Below, in pieces: positions 17,532 through 55,500 of a DNA stretch of 64,000 nucleotides. Position numbers and translations under genes: made by a program. Source of the DNA: a virus; IMG/VR virus record IMGVR_UViG_3300028837_001424, positions 48,592 through 112,591 of that record; one strand, given 5' to 3'. Under the pieces are notes generated by a model. It searched no databases. It was not told the origin of the DNA and saw only the letters and a list, made by a program, of their open reading frames with translations. The number at the start of each line of letters is the position of its first letter. The stretch's first letter is position 1.

Positions 17532-18814
17532 TTTTATTTATTAGCGACTTCGATTTTAGGGGTTCGGGATATCTGCACATAGCAACAAGCTTGTGCAACG
17601 AGTTGGCGACTAGACATGGTAGAAAAGTTACTGCGTTGGGCATCGGCTACGACCGATCACAACACAATTGGCCCTTTTCGATTATTCCAGTTCGTCAGCG
17701 CGAATGGGGAAGACATATTCCAGCCATGGTCCATAACTTTATCCAGATGGGGAAATCTGGCCAATGGGATGAAGTAGAGGCGATTGTTGTTGCCTTAGAT
17801 ATTCCTATGCACGCAAATATGATGAAGATCAAAAGGGAAAACACGCCCTATATAGGCATCTTTCCAATTGAGAGCGGCCCTTTATGCAATACATGGGACT
17901 TTGCTATTGGTCACATGAGCGAACGATTAGTGATTAGCGAGTTCGGAAAGCATATGATTGACGAGTCTGGCACCAATACCTCCGTTTATATACCTATAGG
18001 AATCGATTCAACATCTTGGCGTATGCCATCGGATGTAGAAAGGAAGGCAATTAGGAAAGGGATGGGTTATGATGAAGATCAGTTTGTGGTTCTGACGGTT
18101 GCCGATAATCAAGAGCGCAAAAACTTGAGCATAGCGGCAGATGTTATAGAGCGCCTCAAAAAACATTTAAACGTGAGGTGGTCGTTGGTGACTCGAATCA
18201 ACTGTCCAGTAGGCTGGAAGCTCGACGATCTCATGCATCAATTCGACATAATTGATCAAGTAGATAAATATGATAAGGGACTGGCGTTTGATCGGCTATG
18301 GATGCTATATGCTTCAGCAGACGCATTCCTGTTGACGAGCAAGGCCGAGGGGCTTTGTTTACCAATCCTAGAAGCAATGGCAACTGGGTTGCCAGTTGTG
18401 GCAACCTCTTGTACCGCAATTCCCGAACACATTTGGGAAGATCCTGATTGGAGTCGCTGTAGTGATGGTATCTGGCACAAAGGAAAGCCACGAGGCCGAA
18501 GAGGCTATGGTTTGAACGTGGAATACACAACTATTGATCCTTGGGGTAACTCCGTTAGAAGCTTTCCAGATCCCAAGCACGCCGTAAAATTGCTAAGGAA
18601 GATCGCCAAGATGAAGCCGTCTCAAAAGCAGGATTTCATTCAACCAGGTAGGGACTATGCCGTTGGTCGAACTTGGCAACGAGCAGGAAATGTACTGGAA
18701 GAGACGCTCAAACGGGTGATCAAAAAGGCGCAACCAAAAGATGAGCCTGGAACTGTGATACCATCATCACAGCCAAGGGTGATACCCGAAATAACAGAGG
18801 AGAATTCGGTATGA
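17528..18814 (+). CDS. Glycosyltransferase family 4 (GT-B)
   Basis: NQERKN, LYASADAFLLTSKAEGLCLPILEAMATGLPVV. Confidence 0.85.
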   Translation: MILFISDFDFRGSGYLHIATSLCNELATRHGRKVTALGIGYDRSQHNWPFSIIPVRQREWGRHIPAMVHNFIQMGKSGQWDEVEAIVVALDIPMHANMMKIKRENTPYIGIFPIESGPLCNTWDFAIGHMSERLVISEFGKHMIDESGTNTSVYIPIGIDSTSWRMPSDVERKAIRKGMGYDEDQFVVLTVADNQERKNLSIAADVIERLKKHLNVRWSLVTRINCPVGWKLDDLMHQFDIIDQVDKYDKGLAFDRLWMLYASADAFLLTSKAEGLCLPILEAMATGLPVVATSCTAIPEHIWEDPDWSRCSDGIWHKGKPRGRRGYGLNVEYTTIDPWGNSVRSFPDPKHAVKLLRKIAKMKPSQKQDFIQPGRDYAVGRTWQRAGNVLEETLKRVIKKAQPKDEPGTVIPSSQPRVIPEITEENSV

Positions 18815-19710
18815 GCAAGCGCACAAGGGCAAGAAAGCCAAAACAGGGAAGAGCAAGAAAGAAACAAGGACCAGCGCCGAAAACATTGGTTGATATCTGT
18901 ATGCTGGTCTTTGGTGAGTGGGGGTTACTCTCAAAAGCTATCAGGGCGATTCCGGCTGCAGCCGAGGGGCTGAATGCCAGCTATCGAGTCATAGTCGTCG
19001 ATAATGGCACACCTGATTGGGAGACTGAGGAAAAGGAAATTGTAACGGCCAAGGAACAATCAGCACCAATTAAGGAACTGCTTAGGCCACAGGACATCTT
19101 TTTTAGGCTCGATGAAAACAAGGGCTTCCCCGGTGGTTACAACGTCGCGGTCGGCAAGGGGCGCTCGCCGCTTATTCTCATCTTGACTTCAGACGTTTTC
19201 CTGTTTCCTGGCGCGATTACAAAACTTGTTAGCGTTCTGGACGATCCTGAAGTTGGTATCGCAAGCCCGATGTTGCTCTATCCAGCGGACGAATCTCCCC
19301 ACGGGCCTCCTGGTAGCGTGCAGCATGCCGGCATTGGATTCGATATTCGAGGCGATCCCTATCATATTTTCATGGGTTGGCAGCCAGATCATGAGAAGGT
19401 AAATCAGCGTAGAGAGTTACAAGCGGTTACGGGAGCATGTATTCTAACTCGGCGTGCTTTATGGCAAAGAATAGGCGGCTTCTCTGAGCTTTATAATCAG
19501 GGAACATTTGAGGATATGGAGCTTGCATTTGCCATCCGCCAAATGGGCTACAAAATAATTTTCGAGCCAAGCGCGCGAGGTGAACACTATGTTGGAGGTT
19601 CCATAAAACATGGTGCTATGAGGCCGGGTTTTAATCTCGCATTAAATTCAACAATTTTCCGTGGCCGTTGGGCACCATCTCTGAAATGGGATACTTATCG
19701 ATTTTATTGA
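18811..19710 (+). CDS. Glycosyltransferase family 2
   Basis: VVDNG, NKGFPGGYN, VQHAG, AVTGAC, IGGFSELYNQGTFEDMEL. Confidence 0.85.
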   Translation: MSKRTRARKPKQGRARKKQGPAPKTLVDICMLVFGEWGLLSKAIRAIPAAAEGLNASYRVIVVDNGTPDWETEEKEIVTAKEQSAPIKELLRPQDIFFRLDENKGFPGGYNVAVGKGRSPLILILTSDVFLFPGAITKLVSVLDDPEVGIASPMLLYPADESPHGPPGSVQHAGIGFDIRGDPYHIFMGWQPDHEKVNQRRELQAVTGACILTRRALWQRIGGFSELYNQGTFEDMELAFAIRQMGYKIIFEPSARGEHYVGGSIKHGAMRPGFNLALNSTIFRGRWAPSLKWDTYRFY

Positions 19711-19794
19711 CCCTGCCGTGCCAAGCCCAACCTAACATCGCCAGACCTCGCATCGCCAAGCCGTACTCCGCCGCGAACCGCCTAGCCATGCCTC
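19710..19794 (-). ncRNA. Pentamer guide unit A1: 17 x (NN + GGY-type triplet)
   Basis: Minus: GA ggc AT ggc TA ggc GG ttc GC ggc GG agt AC ggc TT ggc GA tgc GA ggt CT ggc GA tgt TA ggt TG ggc TT ggc AC ggc AG ggt. Confidence 0.8.
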
Positions 19795-19807
19795 GTTTAT
19801 AATTCAT

Positions 19808-19872
19808 TCCTAGCCTCGCCACACCGCACCAAACACTGCGCCACCTAGCCGGACACCGCCCCACCTTGCCCT
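19808..19872 (-). ncRNA. Pentamer guide unit A2: 13 x (NN + GGY-type triplet)
   Basis: Minus: AG ggc AA ggt GG ggc GG tgt CC ggc TA ggt GG cgc AG tgt TT ggt GC ggt GT ggc GA ggc TA gga. Confidence 0.8.
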
Positions 19873-19906
19873 AACTGGGGAGAGTTCTCACATACTCTCC
19901 CCAATT
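19873..19906 (-). other. RNA hairpin immediately 5' of array A
   Basis: Minus AATTGGGGAGAGT-atgtgaga-ACTCTCCCCAGTT, 13-bp stem with one U-G wobble that pairs only on the minus strand. Confidence 0.75.
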
Positions 19907-19910
19907 CGAA

Positions 19911-20507
19911 TCAAAGTATCGAAACTTCGAATCGTCCATATGGCCCGCCCTTTGCAGGACGCCAATCGCCAAGACCTACAGCGTTGCCAGCCAGTTCGAG
20001 CCAGTGGATGAGTCTGTCTTTATCCACAAACTCTTCGTTGTACTGTAGCTCGCCTTCAATACTCCAATCTTCTGGAATAATTGGGCGAGTGCGCATGACG
20101 GTAGCCTGCCCGACACGAACGCCAATGCGGAAGCGGAAGCGTTCATCTTTCCACAGTTCCTTGGGATCTTTAGGACCGTCGTATTGAAGGACATAGTGGT
20201 GGTCACAAAATATACCAACACCTGCTGCCTTTCCTTCCTTCTCCATACGAGCGGCGCTACCCCTGCCAGCCAAGGCCGCCTTTAGTAATCGACCTGGAAT
20301 GACAGGCACTCCGTCATTGATGTATAGCGCACCCATAAACTCAAGGCGCGCCATTTCCTCGAAATCCTTCTCAGTCTTCTTGCGCTGAGAACTCACCTTC
20401 TTGAGCTTTTTTGCCCAAGTATTCAATGGATCTGCTAGCTGTCCATTGTGGAGGATCAGGGGGCTGATCCCCGTCAAACGAAATTTCAGAGTCTTCAGGA
20501 CGTTCAT
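19911..20507 (-). CDS. RAMP/Cas7-like protein 1 (putative guide-RNA-binding, Vipr-like), 198 aa
   Basis: RBS GGAG; N-terminal LKFRLTGISPLILH, central IPGRLLKAAL, RTRP..W, C-terminal Gly-rich loop GLGDWRPAKGGPYGRFEV; flanked by pentamer arrays. Confidence 0.75.
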   Translation of the reverse strand: MNVLKTLKFRLTGISPLILHNGQLADPLNTWAKKLKKVSSQRKKTEKDFEEMARLEFMGALYINDGVPVIPGRLLKAALAGRGSAARMEKEGKAAGVGIFCDHHYVLQYDGPKDPKELWKDERFRFRIGVRVGQATVMRTRPIIPEDWSIEGELQYNEEFVDKDRLIHWLELAGNAVGLGDWRPAKGGPYGRFEVSIL

Positions 20508-20805
20508 CGAACTTCTCCAATATCTTAACCGGCAAGCCCGCTTCCACATTGTCCTCTATTATCGTTTCGGCTCGACGTGAGTATCGAAGCCCTCTGATAT
20601 ATGAGGTGAGAAAGTCGTGGCATCGACGGCAGACGGTTATGAGATCCTCACCGATCTCTTCTCCGTATCTTTCGTATGTCTTATGATGCACCTCCAATTC
20701 TTCTACACAAGGAACTCCTGTTAATTCGGCAATGCCGAATATTTTTGAAAGTTGACATTCGTAGTTATCTCTTTCTAGGATTGCTTTTCTTACTAGGTTA
20801 TCCAT
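20371..20805 (-). CDS. HNH endonuclease overlapping the 5' end of the RAMP gene
   Basis: RBS GGAG; RKAILERDNYECQ...C...LEVHHKTY...EDLITVCRRCH. Confidence 0.8.
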   Translation of the reverse strand: MDNLVRKAILERDNYECQLSKIFGIAELTGVPCVEELEVHHKTYERYGEEIGEDLITVCRRCHDFLTSYIRGLRYSRRAETIIEDNVEAGLPVKILEKFDERPEDSEISFDGDQPPDPPQWTASRSIEYLGKKAQEGEFSAQED

Positions 20806-20826
20806 AATGGACTCCGAATAAAGTAA

Positions 20827-20921
20827 TCCTTGCCTCGCCCTGTCGTGCCGGACCTTGCCAAACCGTACCAGACCGCGCCCAAACATACACTGCCAGATCC
20901 AGCCACGCCTGGCCGCGCCTC
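20827..20921 (-). ncRNA. Pentamer guide unit B1: 19 units
   Basis: Plus: tcc TT gcc TC gcc CT gtc GT gcc GG acc TT gcc AA acc GT acc AG acc GC gcc CA aac AT aca CT gcc AG atc CA gcc AC gcc TG gcc GC gcc TC. Confidence 0.8.
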
Positions 20922-20934
20922 GAATATAATTCCT

Positions 20935-21009
20935 TCCCTGCCATGCCCCGCCGTATCCCACCGCGCCAGATCGTGCCTAGCCGGACTTCGCCACGCCAAA
21001 CCACGCCTT
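20935..21009 (-). ncRNA. Pentamer guide unit B2: 15 units
   Basis: Minus NN series: AA GT TT GT GA CC TA AC CT GC GG AC GG AT AG. Confidence 0.8.
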
Positions 21010-21023
21010 GAACATAATTGCTG

Positions 21024-21098
21024 TCCTTGCCGCGCCCCACCAAACCTCTCCATGCAGCACCAAGCCTGGTCGCGCCAAACCTTAACTTACCGTGCCTC
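21024..21098 (-). ncRNA. Pentamer guide unit B3: 15 units
   Basis: Minus NN series: GA AC AA AA TT GC CA TT GC AT GA TT GG GC AA. Confidence 0.8.
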
Positions 21099-21108
21099 GA
21101 AACCAAAA

Positions 21109-21172
21109 TCCCGCCACCCATTATTCGAGGTTGCCCTACCATGAACAAGCCAAGCTGTAATGGGAAGCGGGA
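21109..21172 (-). other. Structured leader stem-loop 5' of array B
   Basis: Minus TCCCGC-tt-CCCATTA ... TAATGGG-tg-GCGGGA with inner TTGTTC/GGGCAA helix. Confidence 0.65.
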
Positions 21173-21227
21173 GTCTGATCTCGATAAAAACAAAAGGCTT
21201 GGTAGATGTCCATGGCAGGTTAGTAGA

Positions 21228-21256
21228 AGTGTACCATAGCGGGCACAGTATGTCAA
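21228..21256 (-). promoter_or_regulatory. Sigma70-type promoter for the array B-HNH-RAMP1-array A operon
   Basis: TTGACA-17 nt-TACACT. Confidence 0.75.
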
Positions 21257-21311
21257 GACCAATGTATTAATCGTTTAAAACAACCAAATTCCATGATATA
21301 ATTATCTTTGC

Positions 21312-21868: not shown

Positions 21869-22072
21869 ATGTCCAAAATTCAGAAAGGCGGTAAGAAAAA
21901 CCGCAAACATGGCCGTGCAGCGCGCAAGCCCAAAACTGCACGGTATCGTATTTCCAATCGTCGAGCAAAAAATAAAACCAAAAGAGTTCTGCGTAGCAGC
22001 GGCAAAAAGGCTGCAAAACAATACGCGCGGGAACAAAACACAACTGGCTATCTACTCAAATTGCTAAGTTGA
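21869..22072 (+). CDS. Small, very basic (K/R-rich) protein
   Basis: RBS GAGGTG; MSKIQKGGKKNRKHGRAARKPK. Confidence 0.6.
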   Translation: MSKIQKGGKKNRKHGRAARKPKTARYRISNRRAKNKTKRVLRSSGKKAAKQYAREQNTTGYLLKLLS

Positions 22073-22226: not shown

Positions 22227-22664
22227 TTACTCAGCGACGATTGGCTCAGGGAGCATTTCTCCCATAATGTCGGTTTCTATTTCGGCCAATCTATAAGTAT
22301 CCGTATCAGTAAGATGCTCAAAACCGACTCGGTAATACGTCCGCACGTTTTGATTAAAGCTAACGTAGTCAATCCAGCCGCGAATAACGTAATAATCAAG
22401 AGCGTTAGGCTCATTCTTGTATTCCTTCATGTCACATTCGGACCACTCTTGAAATACTGCTCCCGTCTTATCCCATAGAATATCTTCGATGGTCTTTTGA
22501 GAGCGGCTGCATAGCTGACCCTTAATTGACGGGCCTTGATCACTGGTAGTTGCTTTACCATTTAGTAAATAATGTGCGGAAGTGGCAACGGCATATGCCA
22601 GCAGAATGAGAGTAAAAACGGCAACATATCTTAGACATCCTTTACCGGTCGTATTTTTCTTCAT
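22227..22664 (-). CDS. Hypothetical membrane-anchored protein with its own promoter (moron-like)
   Basis: N-terminal TM segment YVAVFTLILLAYAVA; RBS AAGGA. Confidence 0.6.
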   Translation of the reverse strand: MKKNTTGKGCLRYVAVFTLILLAYAVATSAHYLLNGKATTSDQGPSIKGQLCSRSQKTIEDILWDKTGAVFQEWSECDMKEYKNEPNALDYYVIRGWIDYVSFNQNVRTYYRVGFEHLTDTDTYRLAEIETDIMGEMLPEPIVAE

Positions 22665-22881: not shown

Positions 22882-23076
22882 TTAGATCTCATTGATAAAT
22901 TGTCCAAGTCGTTCAACTTTTTCTTGAACAACACTAAAGTTTTTTGCGACACGAGCAACATCTCCAAAAATCAAGCCCCTATTTGCTTTATCAAGAGCTT
23001 TATTAATGTCTTGATACAAGCTCTTGGCAGTCTCGATGGGTTTGTAATTGGCACAGTTCTCACAAGTTTTGTTCAT
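22882..23076 (-). CDS. Small hypothetical protein (CxxC) downstream of array C
   Basis: RBS GGAGGT; MNKTCENCANY. Confidence 0.55.
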   Translation of the reverse strand: MNKTCENCANYKPIETAKSLYQDINKALDKANRGLIFGDVARVAKNFSVVQEKVERLGQFINEI

Positions 23077-23099
23077 CTTAGTTACCTCCGATGTAAAAA

Positions 23100-23234
23100 G
23101 CTTTGCTATGCTTTGCTCTGCTTTGCTGCGCTCTGCTGCGCTGCGCTTTGCTAAGCTTTGCTGGGCTCGGCTACGCTGCGCTTGGCTGCGCTCCGCTTGG
23201 CTAGGCTCGGCTGCGCTCTGCTGCGCTGCGCTAC
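23100..23234 (-). ncRNA. Pentamer array C: 27 x (NN + AGC)
   Basis: Plus strand GCT-NN 27 times with invariant GCT; begins 5 nt after the RAMP2 stop codon; followed by a T tract on minus. Confidence 0.75.
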
Positions 23235-23239
23235 GACCA

Positions 23240-23878
23240 CTATTCCATTGTTACAGGGTTAGTATCCTTCTCAAGAGTTTGCACAGTCCCGATTTCTTTA
23301 ACTTTCTTCCATTCAACTACTTCAAATGAACCAAAGGTTGGTCTATAGGCACATAGCCCTACGAATATACCGCCACGATTAAACCAATCCTCGGCCTTGG
23401 AAATGCTGAAATACTCATTTTCGTAAATGCTTATATTGAATTTTAATGACCAGGGCAAATCCAAAACGGGACGACTCACATTGACCCTAACTTTTGGGTT
23501 TGGCCTTGCCATTCTTGTATCTATGTAAAATGGAGACTTATTCAAATCTTCGGCGACCTCCAGTTTTACATTGCTTTCTTCGTGTTCTTTTCCATTTTGG
23601 AAAGGAATATATGCGGGTTGCACAGAGATACAACCACGGATCACTGGAGACAAAGTTTTCCACTCTTTGCTATTTACAAACATCCGTAGGCAGGAATGGC
23701 TATCTTTACTCGCCAGAAAGCCTTCGATGCTTGAGCTTGGCAAGCAGACGGTTTTGCCGTCGCGGGGGTCGAGGTAAATTTTTTGCTCGACGGGCGTTTC
23801 GTCCTGCGAGACCCATTTGTCGAACATGATCGGCGTCAGACCGTTTAAGACTACTTGTACTTTCACCATGTTTAGCAT
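23240..23878 (-). CDS. RAMP/Cas7-like protein 2 (Vipr-like), 212 aa
   Basis: VQVVLNGLTPIMFD, LPSSSIEGFL, SRPVLDLPWSLKF, GGIFVGLCAYRPTFGSFEV: same motif order as RAMP1. Confidence 0.7.
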   Translation of the reverse strand: MLNMVKVQVVLNGLTPIMFDKWVSQDETPVEQKIYLDPRDGKTVCLPSSSIEGFLASKDSHSCLRMFVNSKEWKTLSPVIRGCISVQPAYIPFQNGKEHEESNVKLEVAEDLNKSPFYIDTRMARPNPKVRVNVSRPVLDLPWSLKFNISIYENEYFSISKAEDWFNRGGIFVGLCAYRPTFGSFEVVEWKKVKEIGTVQTLEKDTNPVTME

Positions 23879-24236
23879 TGTTCTTGCTCCTTTCGCTTAT
23901 AAAGCGGCGCGACTGGTCAACCAATTCTCGGCGCGCATCACTTATTCTTTCTATTAGAGGTTGCTCTTTTCCTTCCAACCAGTTTATTACGAGCTTTAGA
24001 ATTTCATCATCAAGTTTAAATATCTCCCGATCATCAAAGCAATAAGAAGCCAGTAGGCACTTAAGTTCATCTTCGACTTTCAGGGGTTCATCAACTAGGC
24101 TGGCGTGGCATATTGTTAATTTGCTGTTGGCGGCTAAAAAAGCACGATAGCGCCTATTGAAATCGTCGGCTTTTCCTATTTTGAATAGATTATCAAATCC
24201 GAGGTCAAATAGGTAAACGTAGCCGCTAGACATCAT
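23706..24236 (-). CDS. GIY-YIG family (T5orf172/Mug113-like) nuclease overlapping the 5' end of RAMP2
   Basis: GYVYL....LFKIGK..D..RR...VEDEL...REIF; RBS AAGGAG. Confidence 0.75.
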   Translation of the reverse strand: MMSSGYVYLFDLGFDNLFKIGKADDFNRRYRAFLAANSKLTICHASLVDEPLKVEDELKCLLASYCFDDREIFKLDDEILKLVINWLEGKEQPLIERISDARRELVDQSRRFISERSKNNAKHGESTSSLKRSDADHVRQMGLAGRNARRAKNLPRPPRRQNRLLAKLKHRRLSGE

Positions 24237-52502: not shown

Positions 52503-55500
52503 TAAGCAATTCTCTTTCGGCGATCAATTCAGCAGTACGAGATCCGATGGTGTATGACCAGCCATTCTTTGTCATAACCCTATAATTACGACCCTGAGCC
52601 ATCATCTTAATATCTCGCTCCTCCAAGTCACGGCTCATAAATACTGGCTCTATTGTGCCAACAAGTGGCTTAGTATAACTTGAGTCTTTCATCGATATCC
52701 TCTAAGTTAATTGGTTTTATATTATTGATGTTTCGCAAAAGATCCGAAACTACGGCTCGATAGACCTGCATCAGTGATGGAGTTATCCGGTCATCTGTGC
52801 CGTCAAAACGGAAATCCTCTTGAAGTTGAGCTATCAGCTTTGCGATATTACGGATCTCGTTTTTATTCATTGTCATAGTTCCCATTGTGGAAGCGCTGGA
52901 TTAGGTATAAGTTTCCCCGGCTTTTTCGGCTGCTCGTTTTTTTCTTTATGGAATTCCCCATTTTTGGTTTCAAGATCAGCACCATAAAGCGCCTGCCGAA
53001 TATCGCAAAGTATGACAGCATTCCAGAGCAATAGAACGATGATGATTACGAGTAAAATATTACGCATCATTATGGATTCCCCGCATTCCGAGCATCGCTG
53101 ATTGTCTCACTATTGTCTGAAGACTCTTTGTGACTAACGTCTTTGTTCCTTTTGGCACATTCGGCAAGGGCTTCTTTTTCTGTCGGGAATAATCTATCAA
53201 CAGACCATAACCGACCACCACCGATTCCAGTTTCAATGCACATATATTTTTCTTCTCTTTTTTCCTCTTGAAATTCAAAACTGCGTATCCTTACTTCGAT
53301 CTGCCCAATTGTAAGCACATGACCAACCACCCATATTTTACCGACAATTTTCCATTCTCCACCATCGCCTTTACAAATTGGACAACGAACGATTTTCCCG
53401 TCTCGGCCAGTAATTTCGGATCTATTAAGCATACTTGTTGGTTTGTTGCTACCTTCGCAGAACGTACAGCGTATCCATATTCTTGATCTCTCCTCTTTGA
53501 TGCTAATTACTTCCTGTCCTAAGTTATATCTGGTTCGAATATCCACTTCAGTCTCCTTAGAATGGAATATCTTGTTTGTCTAATTCCTTGGCACAATGCG
53601 GGCAAACCTCACAACCTAATCCGGGTATATCAACACCATATCTCACGGCAGGGGAACAGGTGCATCTATTTTCCTCATGCTCATCAATCTCTCGCTGATC
53701 TCTAACCGCGTCCATTATCCTGTCTCTGATCCTCCGACGGAAGACAAACAGCTTGTCAATTCCTCGATAACCGGGGAGCAGCTCGTCACAGCGCACTAAA
53801 ACGATGTTCATGGCCCGATCGAAGTCGAGTCCTGTTTCTCGTGCCAGAAATTCGGCAAGCTGTTGTTTTTCAAGGGATAATTGCTCTAATGTCTCGGTGT
53901 ATTCTTTCATTCTTAGTTCCCGGTTTATCTTAGCGAATGAGTTACGAGGCATTGAATTGCTCCTTAATTTTGATTTGCCATCGAACAAATTCACTCTCTG
54001 GGCCCGGATGTATAGTTGCTTTATTTGTTAGGACTAACCGATATGCAATCCATTGAAGCCTTTTTATTGACCCATCGGTAATCTTATGATAAGAATTTTG
54101 TTTATGGTTCCTATAGAAAAAGGCACTTGCACCATCTTTGTAGGCAACAAGCGAAATATCATTGATCATTTCATCTGCTCCTCTGCTTTGCTGATTATCC
54201 CAACACGGTGTCGGGATAAAACCTCACGGGCATTATTAATTTCATTATCGTAGAACGATTTACCATAAAGTTTTATTTCATGTGCGTGTCGTTCCAAAAA
54301 TCTTGCCAAAACATCTAGCAAATCATCGTTGATGGCTTCGAGTTTCTCTATCTTCCTATATGGGGCCATTCGAGCATCAAGTTTGGCTTGGTATTTGGCA
54401 GAGGTTTTATATTGCCGTTCCTCTACCTTGTCAGGATCGTGTTGGCTACACCATCGATGACCGCGTTTTTCTACTTTCCATTTACGCGTGCACTGATGCC
54501 AATGCCATCCGCCCTGACCAGACACGGAAGCCGCACAGTAATCTGGATCAAATTCTGCTTCATATCTATCACGCTTTTTATAAACAAAAAGCCCTCCAGG
54601 CAATATTTGCTCACTCATTGCGATTGCTCCTCTGCTTTGCGGATGGCTTCACTTGCCTGCTTTTTTAGCGCAAGCAATACTAAGGCATTTCCGACTGAAA
54701 CCTCATCGTCATATTCGCCTAATTTATCTATCAGCCCAAAGGCGGCTTTTGCTACCTCCAGCAGGTCATCATGGCAGTTGCAAGCGGTGACGATGAGGCG
54801 GGCGTTGGCTTTATCCTCGTTATCATTGGATAACCCAACCGTATAACAGATTTCTGTTCTCCACTGTGCCTGCTTGTGAGTACCTGATTTATTGGCTTGA
54901 ATGCTCCTGCAACCTCCTACATTTGGAGGCATTGGTTGTACTCTCCAAGGTAAAGCCGTATGCTCGGTCATCTTGTCTGCTCCTTTATTTCCTTCCATCG
55001 AAAGCCAGTCCATTTCCAACGGCGAAGGATCTTAAAGGTTGGTTCGGTGTAGTTTGGTACTTCATGCAATTCGTTTGTACCAGGAGTGCTTGATAGCCAG
55101 AGGCTTTGGCAGACTCTCGTAATTTTTGCCATAGCTATTACACTCCCGCGTTTGCGATTATTCTTGCCATAATCTAAATCTGGAGACCAGTCTGGTTCTT
55201 GGGAAAATTCAACCCAGTATGCTCTCCCATTATCTATCCATACGGGAGCATACTCAGTTACAATTTGTCCGACAGTAATACCTGATTTGATGGCTGTCAT
55301 CTTGTCTGCTCCTTACCATCACAATAGTCTTGCCAGCCTTTGCGCAACTTCTTAATGTAATCACGTTGTCGCTCTCTCAGACCACGGGCGTAATCGCTAA
55401 GGTAAGTCTTGCCACAGTGCTTGCATACGCTCCAAGTGGGATCGCGACTTTGCTGAGAGCGCGCTAGATCTGGCTCGTGCTTACAATCTATTTGGTCGGT

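What the first reader, a model, noticed from the sequence alone, without database searches (positions are those of the whole stretch)
19710..21256. Putative RNA-guided system: RAMP/Cas7-like protein + HNH nuclease + five GGY-NN pentamer guide units in one operon
Seen: on the minus strand a TTGACA-17-TACACT promoter precedes a stem-loop, three pentamer units (15, 15, 19 repeats), an HNH gene, a 198-aa protein with RAMP-like motif order ending in a Gly-rich loop (GLGDWRPAKGGPYGRFEV), a hairpin and two more units (13, 17 repeats). Every 5 nt there is a near-constant GGY triplet and a freely varying dinucleotide. No CRISPR repeat-spacer array or cas1/2 is visible in the window. Established: Cas7/RAMP subunits oligomerise on guide RNA with fixed periodicity and flip bases out. 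Inference: one protomer binds each GGY, and the NN dinucleotides are the programmable code. I recall that recently reported VIPR-type phage systems have this GGY/NN architecture, but I cannot verify that here.
Basis: partly seen in the sequence, partly recalled or inferred. Interest (0 to 1): 0.97.

Follow-up and report, generated by a model that had tools for sequence, protein, structure and literature searches.

The report
Phage VIPR guide-RNA system with HNH
This stretch of an uncultured 113-kb phage is a complete example of VIPR, a CRISPR-related RNA-guided DNA-recognition system first published in 2026, here with five guide RNAs and an HNH nuclease partner, so it is a well-supported new member of a known kind rather than a new kind of system.

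Summary
The 198-aa protein is a full-length homologue (E 1.8e-29) of the solved SUSP1 Vipr protein (PDB 36pp) and keeps the residues that read G1, G2 and Y3 of each repeat. Related vipr genes carry same-strand pentamer arrays in 76 of 80 viral loci and an upstream HNH homologue in 69 of 80. It belongs to an HNH-linked clade, sister to the characterised SUSP1/Pseudomonas group. Its HNH is closest to the HNH domains of IscB and Cas5-HNH Cascade. One guide (vr4) spells the G-loop codons of vipr and fits a close relative's vipr (20/22) better than its own (18/22). That relative's guide hits this phage at 27/30, with skipped bases on wobble positions. A second, divergent VIPR locus with 27 AGC-NN pentamers and a T5orf172 gene lies 2 kb away. 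The scan has already found HNH-linked VIPR loci in at least seven other genomes. No expression or cleavage data could be obtained. Known kind, new member, moderate interest.

The parts
21228..21256 (-). Sigma-70-type promoter TTGACA-17-TACACT with TG-extended -10
   Evidence: Consensus scan, 10 of 12 matches. A near-identical TTGACATACTGT box recurs at 22716-22688(-).
21097..21184 (-). Leader hairpin ending in UUUCGA immediately before vr1
   Evidence: MFE -44.9 kcal/mol, z -4.47, 0 of 200 shuffles as stable.
21022..21096 (-). vrRNA unit vr1: 15 pentamers (13 guide units plus GGCAA-GGACA handle)
   Evidence: Parsed in register; handle inferred from relatives.
20933..21007 (-). vrRNA unit vr2: 15 pentamers (13 guide units plus handle)
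   Evidence: Separated from vr1 by the AU-rich spacer GCAATTATGTTCAA.
20825..20919 (-). vrRNA unit vr3: 19 pentamers (17 guide units plus handle). Its antisense codon reading contains A-H-[IM]-L-R-H-T-[CW]-A, like box II of tyrosine recombinases
   Evidence: No exact target found.
20371..20805 (-). HNH accessory (vap-like) gene, 144 aa; folded core is residues 1-80, and the disordered tail is encoded inside vipr
   Evidence: Pfam HNH 22.2 bits. Homologue directly upstream of vipr in 69 of 80 loci. Invariant C17, H40, H41, Y44, C59, C62, H63. Closest solved relatives are IscB and Cas5-HNH. Model.
19911..20507 (-). vipr1: Vipr RAMP protein, 198 aa
   Evidence: PDB 36pp SUSP1 Vipr, E 1.8e-29 over residues 5-197. 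phrog_4652, E 2.7e-50. Functional residues kept.
19873..19906 (-). 13-bp hairpin between vipr1 and vr4, not followed by a T-run
   Evidence: z -5.29. A hairpin at the same place in relative L086 has a different stem sequence.
19806..19870 (-). vrRNA unit vr4: 13 pentamers (11 guide units plus handle); reads K-G-G-P-Y-G-R/S-F-A-V-D/E as codons
   Evidence: Matches own vipr 19921-19952 at 18/22 and L086 vipr at 20/22.
19708..19792 (-). vrRNA unit vr5: 17 pentamers (15 guide units plus handle); its end abuts the stop codon of the convergent GT2 gene
   Evidence: GT2 gene 18811-19710(+).
23706..24236 (-). Second locus: T5orf172/MUG113-domain gene upstream of vipr2, overlapping it by 173 nt
   Evidence: Pfam T5orf172, E 1.6e-5; overlap.
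23240..23878 (-). Second locus: vipr2, a divergent Vipr paralogue, 212 aa
   Evidence: BLASTP to Vipr1, E 5e-6. phrog_4652, E 8e-7. 239 relatives. AF2 pLDDT 89.7 with top folds Csm3/Cmr4/Cas7-11.
23098..23232 (-). Second locus: one array of 27 perfect AGC-NN pentamers, ending in a T-run
   Evidence: Found independently by the triplet-agnostic detector.
53603..53646 (-). Site in ORF 53557-53994 matched by guide 3 of the related phage L086
   Evidence: 27/30 NN against a shuffle maximum of 21. In frame, with every skipped base on a wobble position.

Best explanation
The locus is a VIPR (Viral Interference Programmable Repeat) system of a 112.6-kb uncultured phage. Inferred from layout: one promoter drives a transcript that carries a leader hairpin, three vrRNAs, the HNH gene, vipr, a second hairpin and two more vrRNAs. 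Inferred from homology to the solved SUSP1 complex: Vipr1 protomers polymerise along each vrRNA, one per GGY-NN repeat. They sequester G1, G2 and Y3 with H20, R141, D181, W182 and R183 (SUSP1 H17, R138, D177, W178, R179) and expose the NN pairs. The NN pairs read double-stranded DNA in the gapped NN-x-NN code. Units are separated by a constant GGCAR-GGA handle and a short AU-rich spacer, probably cut by a host RNase (inferred). Targets are most likely genes of closely related competing phages. This is partly shown: vr4 spells the G-loop codons of vipr and fits a relative's allele better than its own, and that relative's guide fits a gene of this phage. The conserved HNH partner most likely nicks or cuts DNA held by the filament, making this clade a cutter rather than only a silencer. 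That last step is inference, about 50% likely.
For: Homology to solved SUSP1 Vipr and conservation of every named RNA- and DNA-contact residue. Five GGY-NN units with 87-94% constant positions and near-uniform NN. Arrays occur only at the two vipr loci in the genome and not in shuffles. Same-strand arrays lie next to vipr in 76 of 80 viral loci and in 4 of 4 annotated phages. An HNH homologue lies upstream in 69 of 80 loci, with an invariant catalytic and zinc core. The HNH profile hits IscB at 1.1e-8 and Cas5-HNH at 1.3e-8, and its top structural matches are Cas5-HNH at 35-36% identity. Close relative L086 (84% identity) has the same layout, handle and spacer but different NN. No guide matches the phage's own genome above shuffles except vr4. 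vr4 scores 18/22 on self against 20/22 on L086 vipr; L086 guide 3 scores 27/30 on this phage, in codon register. The genome is viral and rated complete, with no Cas1 and no CRISPR array.
Against: No transcription, processing, RNA-binding or cleavage data. Four of five guides have no identified target, and exact-match scans for vr3 and vr5 found nothing. The inter-unit tails show no significant fold, unlike the pseudoknot tail of the SUSP1 clade, so processing and 3' capping may differ. vr4 also matches the phage's own vipr at 82%, so self-sparing is not clear-cut. Nothing here shows that the HNH touches Vipr or cuts a target.
Confidence: 0.93

Rival explanations
1. It is a VIPR system that only silences transcription, as shown for SUSP1. 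The HNH is a co-travelling homing or selfish endonuclease, or has another role (for example DNA packaging or RNA processing), and is not a guided effector.
For: VIPR silencing without a nuclease is the only mechanism shown experimentally. Free-standing HNH genes are common in phages (PHROG hits). The C-terminal tail of the HNH is unconserved and predicted disordered.
Against: The HNH sits in the same position and frame in 68 of 69 loci, across Vipr proteins only 40-50% identical. Its presence tracks the Vipr tree, needing 5 changes against 15.6 in shuffles. Homing endonucleases do not usually stay linked to one partner over such distances. Its nearest solved relatives are the HNH domains of RNA-guided nucleases. 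The VIPR paper itself lists HNH-domain Vap proteins.
Confidence: 0.35
2. The pentamer tracts are not guide RNAs but DNA-level or protein-coding repeats: iterons, G-rich structural DNA, or a low-complexity ORF such as 20798-21262(-).
For: ORFs of 86-196 aa can be drawn across the arrays.
Against: A 5-nt period is not a multiple of 3, so any ORF changes its repeat frame. Only three of five positions are constant and the other two are near-uniform. Arrays are strand-specific and sit next to vipr in 76 of 80 loci. Homologous arrays in SUSP1 are transcribed and co-purify with Vipr.
Confidence: 0.01
3. It is a degenerate or minimal CRISPR-Cas (type III or IV-like) module whose array lies elsewhere.
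For: The Vipr fold is Cas7-like.
Against: No Cas1 in the complete 112.6-kb genome, with a positive control in 7 reference genomes. No repeat-spacer array, no PADLOC hit, and no other cas gene around the locus.
Confidence: 0.01

Closest known systems
Type II VIPR of Escherichia phage SUSP1 and the Pseudomonas fulva prophage (bioRxiv 10.64898/2026.04.26.720920; structures 10.64898/2026.04.26.720927, PDB 36pp)
   Same: Homologous Vipr protein (36% identity over the full length) with the same GGY-reading and skip-base residues. GGY-NN vrRNAs lie upstream and downstream of the genes on the same strand. The system is phage-encoded. No self-targets. Guides appear aimed at related mobile elements, including vipr itself.
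   Different: The accessory gene is an HNH nuclease upstream of vipr and overlapping it, not the family-less vap1 downstream. Units end in a GGCAR-GGA handle plus a ~14-nt AU-rich spacer with no significant fold, not a pseudoknot tail. Guide lengths of 11-17 units compare with 10-12 in SUSP1. Vipr1 falls in a sister clade, not inside the SUSP1 clade (quick tree).
Nuclease-bearing VIPR types (types III-V; HNH-domain Vap shown in fig. S21 of 10.64898/2026.04.26.720920)
   Same: A Vipr gene paired with a predicted DNA nuclease and GGY-type vrRNAs.
   Different: The paper describes the nuclease-bearing types III and V as enriched in host defence islands. This clade is abundant on viral contigs (521 confirmed viral matches, of which the 80 best were examined) and sits in a complete phage genome. 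I could not assign the type, because the paper's supplementary tables are not held.
Type I-E HNH-Cascade (Cas5-HNH; PDB 8yha, 8zp7, 8zlu) and IscB
   Same: The HNH core is the closest solved relative by sequence profile (1.3e-8 and 1.1e-8) and by fold (rmsd 2.3 A, 35-36% identity). It includes the EDL..LC..CH variant with D in place of the canonical N. In those systems the HNH cuts DNA held by an RNA-guided complex.
   Different: Here the HNH is a free-standing 144-aa protein, not a domain inserted in Cas5 or IscB, and the guide is a gapped pentamer repeat, not a contiguous spacer.
Non-canonical VIPR arrays (GAC/NN, CAC/NN, WGT/NN, TGH/NN; bioRxiv 10.64898/2026.10.21.760802)
   Same: The second locus (vipr2 plus AGC-NN) is a Vipr-like fold next to a period-5 array with a different fixed triplet.
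   Different: AGC is not among the triplets named in the text I could read. The array has 27 units, against about 10 reported. It coexists with a canonical GGY system in one genome.

Membership tests
VIPR system | Vipr protein: a minimal single-RRM RAMP homologous to SUSP1 Vipr | tested here: met
   phmmer against PDB 36pp, E 1.8e-29, residues 5-197 of 198; phrog_4652, E 2.7e-50.
VIPR system | Residues that read GGY and the skipped target base (SUSP1 H17, K33, R138, D177, W178, R179) | tested here: met
   All six are identical in Vipr1 in alignment A1; their roles come.
VIPR system | Adjacent same-strand tandem YNNGG (GGY-NN) repeats, at least 4 units | tested here: met
   Five units of 13-19 pentamers; none elsewhere in the genome apart from locus 2, and none in shuffles.
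VIPR system | GGY conserved while NN is hypervariable between related loci | tested here: met
   L086 (84% identical Vipr) shares GGY, handle and spacer but has unrelated NN strings.
VIPR system | Minimal locus with a vap accessory gene, no CRISPR array and no adaptation genes | tested here: met
   HNH gene only; no Cas1; no repeat-spacer array.
VIPR system | vrRNAs are expressed and co-purify with Vipr | not testable with these tools
VIPR system | Targets follow the 1-nt-skip rule, with skipped bases on wobble positions and no self-targeting | tested here: inconclusive
   Met for the relative's guide on this phage (27/30, in frame) and for vr4 on a relative's vipr (20/22). Four of this locus's five guides have no target found, and vr4 matches self at 82%.
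Type II VIPR (SUSP1 / P. fulva clade) | vap1 gene downstream of vipr | tested here: not met
   Arrays follow vipr directly; the only accessory gene is an upstream HNH. The reference loci have a downstream gene with no Pfam family.
Type II VIPR (SUSP1 / P. fulva clade) | Structured 3' tail (a pseudoknot in the SUSP1 clade) | tested here: not met
   Tails of about 20 nt give z -1.75 to +1.0. Pseudoknots as such are not predicted by this tool.
Type II VIPR (SUSP1 / P. fulva clade) | Vipr protein falls inside the clade | tested here: not met
   SUSP1, LESphi2, LittleE and MakoManhole form a clade (SH-aLRT 98) that excludes Vipr1 (quick tree, midpoint root).
CRISPR-Cas class 1 | Repeat-spacer array with cas1/cas2 and several cas genes | tested here: not met
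HNH (His-Me finger) endonucleases | beta-beta-alpha-metal core with a catalytic His and zinc-binding Cys pairs | tested here: met
   Pfam PF01844 at 22.2 bits against a 21.4 cut-off. Invariant H40, H41, H63, C17, C59, C62 in 30 clade members. Model pLDDT 93-97 over residues 1-80. Catalysis was not tested.

The most novel reading that the evidence does not exclude
The HNH-linked VIPR clade, abundant on viral contigs, is a phage-borne RNA-guided DNA-cutting system. A free-standing HNH, related to the HNH domains of Cas5-HNH Cascade and IscB, is brought to DNA held by a gapped-code Vipr filament. This phage runs two orthogonal VIPR systems side by side (GGY with HNH, AGC with a T5orf172/GIY-YIG-like protein), each Vipr loading only its own repeat type.
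Probability: 0.3. Interest if true: 0.6.

Novelty: new member of a known kind. Interest (0 to 1): 0.35.

Why it matters
VIPR is months old as a concept, and only the nuclease-free SUSP1-type systems have been characterised at the bench. This locus is a clean, compact, promoter-to-end example (about 1.55 kb) of the HNH-linked clade, which made up 69 of the 80 nearest viral loci. Its HNH is most like the HNH domains of Cas5-HNH Cascade and IscB. That makes it a reasonable candidate for testing whether the gapped NN-x-NN code can direct DNA cutting as well as silencing. The pair of this phage and relative L086, whose guides fit each other's genes, gives a ready natural target set. A GGY system and an AGC system in one genome offer a natural test of whether Vipr proteins discriminate between repeat triplets.

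Tried and rejected
1. Complex prediction of Vipr1 with HNH gave no verdict. It counts neither for nor against binding.
I have no contexts for the closest protein hits other than L086, and no expression data.
3. Single-protein locus scans in viral contigs found no close relatives. Alignments of the Vipr2 clade were too divergent for the locus finder.
4. Exact 10-unit 1-nt-skip patterns gave no hits for vr3 (viral and genome collections) or vr5 (viral).
5. I tested whether Vipr2's changes at both G1-reading positions (H to D, D to A) explain its AGC repeats. The changes are clade-wide, yet clade member Burkholderia phage vB_E436 has GG(C/A)-NN repeats. The simple reader-residue code is therefore not supported.
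6. I tested whether the conserved 41-290-nt overlap of HNH with vipr (68 of 69 loci, same frame) reflects a programmed frameshift or a functional overprinted tail. That frame is equally open in vipr genes without an HNH (median 129 against 140 nt), while the other frame closes after 9-15 nt. The tail is unconserved and predicted disordered, and there is no shared slippery motif at the junction. I read the overlap as a by-product of a stop-poor frame.
7. The vr5 match to the adjacent GT2 gene (21/34 untrimmed) and the vr1/vr2 matches near 53,400 are no better than shuffled guides.
8. Rfam found no family, so no hammerhead spacers. PADLOC found nothing.
Full report
OBSERVATION. The sigma-70-type promoter TTGACA-17-TACACT has a TG-extended -10. 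It is followed by an 88-nt hairpin (z -4.5) whose 3' arm ends in UUUCGA right at the first repeat. Three arrays of 15, 15 and 19 pentamers come next, then an HNH ORF (20805-20371), a 198-aa ORF (20507-19911), a 13-bp hairpin (z -5.3) and two more arrays of 13 and 17 pentamers. Over the 79 pentamers, position 1 is G in 87%, position 2 G in 90% and position 3 a pyrimidine in 94%, while positions 4 and 5 are close to uniform. A detector that makes no assumption about the constant triplet finds such period-5 arrays only here and at 23,082-23,244 in the whole 112.6-kb genome, and none in five shuffled genomes. All arrays lie on the coding strand of the neighbouring genes.

WHAT IT IS. The 198-aa protein has no Pfam family. 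It matches phrog_4652 (function unknown) at 2.7e-50 and, decisively, the solved chain PDB 36pp 'SUSP1 Vipr protein' at E 1.8e-29 over residues 5-197. Vipr is the protein of the VIPR systems described in bioRxiv 10.64898/2026.04.26.720920: a minimal RAMP that binds vrRNAs built of alternating GGY and NN. The companion cryo-EM paper (10.64898/2026.04.26.720927) assigns G1 to H17 and D177, G2 to R138 and W178, and Y3 to R179 and neighbours. It assigns K33 to the target-strand backbone next to the skipped base. All six residues are identical in the window's protein (alignment A1). tblastn finds the family in 135 phage records, including phiSUSP1 itself. The window belongs to a 112,591-bp viral record rated 100% complete. 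That record has no Cas1, with the control search positive in 7 reference genomes, no CRISPR-type array and no Rfam match.

LINKAGE IN RELATIVES. An alignment of 41 homologues retrieved at least 521 viral matches, and I examined the best 80. Same-strand GG period-5 arrays lie next to vipr in 76 of the 80, and in all four annotated reference phages. Only four loci have any such tract on the other strand. A homologue of the window's HNH protein lies directly upstream of vipr in 69 of the 80. In a quick maximum-likelihood tree the HNH-less reference phages (SUSP1, LESphi2, LittleE, MakoManhole) form their own clade (SH-aLRT 98). That clade is sister to a group of 61 rows, 58 of them HNH-linked, which holds the window's Vipr1. 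The HNH label needs 5 changes, against 15.6 in shuffles. The careful tree search did not finish and the root is a midpoint, so this is a grouping, not a polarity.

THE HNH PARTNER. The 144-aa protein passes Pfam's HNH threshold narrowly (22.2 against 21.4 bits). Thirty clade members share invariant C17, H40, H41, Y44, C59, C62 and H63, and a near-invariant D54 in place of the canonical Asn. The AlphaFold model is confident for residues 1-80 (pLDDT 93-97) and disordered beyond residue 90. Foldseek's top matches are the Cas5-HNH subunits of type I-E HNH-Cascade, with rmsd 2.3-2.4 A and 35-36% identity over 61-69 columns. The E-values there are weak (0.04-0.1) because the domain is short. The clade profile confirms the relationship by sequence: IscB at 1.1e-8 and CasD/Cas5-HNH at 1.3e-8, the latter sharing the EDL..LC..CH.A.T motif. 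In the reference type II loci the accessory gene lies downstream of vipr and has no Pfam family. The VIPR paper mentions HNH-domain Vap proteins (fig. S21 legend). [quoted passage not shown] I could not assign a type, because the paper's supplementary tables are not held.

ARRAY ANATOMY. Each unit ends with GGCAR-GGA. A terminal GGCAR-GG recurs in relative L086 and in many other loci, including LittleE, LESphi2 and MakoManhole. I therefore treat the last two pentamers as a constant 3' handle, which leaves guides of 13, 13, 17, 11 and 15 units. Between units lies a spacer of about 14 nt (for example GCAATTATGTTCAA) that does not fold better than shuffles (z -1.75 to +1.0). The AATTAT motif is shared only with the close relative L086. 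This differs from the pseudoknot tail of the SUSP1 clade and from hammerhead-interspersed arrays (no Rfam hit). Each block of arrays is preceded by a strong hairpin. The hairpin after vipr is kept in L086 with a different stem sequence. How the units are cut apart is unknown. Cleavage by a host RNase in the AU-rich spacer is my inference.

TARGETS. Under the published 1-nt-skip rule, no guide matches the phage's own genome better than shuffled guides, with one exception. Read as codons, vr4 spells K-G-G-P-Y-G-R/S-F-A-V-D/E. It matches the G-loop codons at the 3' end of the phage's own vipr (19921-19952) at 18/22, a score reached by 2 of 100 shuffles. The one close relative for which I could get DNA is L086, a 2-kb JGI contig with 84% protein identity and the same layout. 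vr4 matches its vipr at 20/22. Untrimmed, the figures are 19/26 and 21/26. The October 2026 paper (10.64898/2026.10.15.759431) describes vipr-targeting guides that score lower on self than on rivals. The pattern here agrees, but the margin is small and the self-match is above 80%, so self-sparing is not established. In the other direction, guide 3 of L086 matches ORF 53557-53994 of this phage at 27/30 (shuffle maximum 21). The match is in frame, with every skipped base on a wobble position. L086 carries its own homologue of that gene just downstream of its arrays, with a one-codon indel in the matched stretch, and the guide scores only 17/30 anywhere on its own contig. This is the signature of allele-specific conflict between related phages. 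vr3 read in antisense contains A-H-[IM]-L-R-H-T-[CW]-A, which resembles box II of tyrosine recombinases (the resemblance is from my own knowledge of that motif). Exact-match scans found no target. vr5 resembles a GT2 motif, but its match to the adjacent GT2 gene is not above shuffles.

MECHANISM. By homology to the solved complex, Vipr1 should polymerise one protomer per repeat, bury GGY and present NN for gapped pairing with double-stranded DNA. This rests on sequence homology and residue conservation, not on experiment here. Because the HNH is conserved in position, keeps its catalytic core and is most like the HNH of RNA-guided nucleases, I think it more likely than not (about 50-60%) that it nicks or cuts DNA held by the filament. 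The alternative is a silencing-only system with a co-travelling HNH. A complex prediction gave no verdict.

SECOND LOCUS. Two kilobases away, ORF 23878-23240(-) is a divergent Vipr paralogue. BLASTP to Vipr1 gives E 5e-6, phrog_4652 gives 8e-7, and it has 239 relatives in the representative library. Its model (pLDDT 89.7) matches Csm3, Cmr4 and Cas7-11 with Foldseek probability 1.00. Five bases after its stop begins one array of 27 perfect AGC-NN pentamers (23232-23098) that ends in a T-run. Upstream is a T5orf172/MUG113-domain gene; by my own knowledge that domain belongs to the GIY-YIG clan. Non-canonical fixed triplets beside Vipr-like folds were reported in 10.64898/2026.10.21.760802 (GAC, CAC, WGT, TGH). 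AGC is not named in the text I read, and 27 units is long. Vipr2 differs from GGY-reading Viprs at both G1-contact positions (H to D, D to A). Those changes are clade-wide, however, and a clade member (Burkholderia phage vB_E436) sits beside GG(C/A)-NN repeats. So they do not by themselves explain AGC.

OVERLAP. The HNH ORF runs 137 nt into vipr. In 68 of 69 related loci it does the same (41-290 nt, median 140), always with vipr in the +1 frame. The unrelated T5orf172 gene overlaps vipr2 by 173 nt in the same relative frame. A control explains this. That frame is open for a median of 129 nt at the start of vipr genes with no upstream HNH, while the other alternative frame closes after 9-15 nt. 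The tail is unconserved except where invariant Vipr codons force it, and it is predicted disordered. No frameshift needs to be invoked.

VERDICT. It is a new member of a kind published in 2026, in an HNH-linked clade that the scan has already met in at least seven other genomes. The points of some interest are the HNH's kinship with Cas5-HNH and IscB, the reciprocal guide-target relation with a close relative, and the coexistence of a GGY and an AGC system in one phage.

Noticed in passing
window 23098-24236 (-): Second, divergent VIPR locus: T5orf172-domain gene, vipr2 (212 aa, Cas7-like fold), then 27 perfect AGC-NN pentamers in one array ending in a T-run, followed at once by the RBS of a 64-aa ORF (22882-23076). 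The NN set has low diversity (GC x8, AA x6), and no target was found (best 31/54 in the phage's own genome).
   Followed up: partly
window 20371-20507 (-), and L007-L085: The HNH ORF overlaps vipr by 41-290 nt in 68 of 69 loci, always in the same relative frame. The control shows that this frame is stop-poor at the start of all vipr genes, so the overlap looks like a by-product. Why that frame is stop-poor is unexplained.
   Followed up: yes
window 53557-53994 (-): A 145-aa ORF of unknown family with a C-terminal Cys-rich motif (CEVCPHC). It is the site matched by a related phage's guide, and the relative carries a homologue directly downstream of its own VIPR arrays.
   Followed up: partly
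window 21256-21228 (-) and 22716-22688 (-): Two near-identical promoter boxes (TTGACATACTGT..) about 1.5 kb apart on the minus strand. One drives the VIPR locus and the other lies upstream of ORF 22227-22664, which suggests a shared promoter class in this phage.
   Followed up: no
L087 (Burkholderia phage vB_E436, PQ789831.1) 1875-2585, and L088 (phage DSL-LC04, OR003939.1) 1317-2231: Both deposited phages carry unannotated VIPR loci with arrays upstream of the vipr gene. In DSL-LC04 the Vipr protein is annotated as a helix-turn-helix transcriptional regulator. In vB_E436 the repeats are GG(C/A)-NN.
   Followed up: partly
window 19708-19710: The last pentamer of vr5 meets the stop codon of the convergent GT2 glycosyltransferase gene (18811-19710, +), so the 3' flank of vr5 is antisense to the end of that gene.
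   Followed up: no
window 21869-22072 (+): A 67-aa, very basic (Lys/Arg-rich) ORF between the two VIPR loci, on the opposite strand.
   Followed up: no
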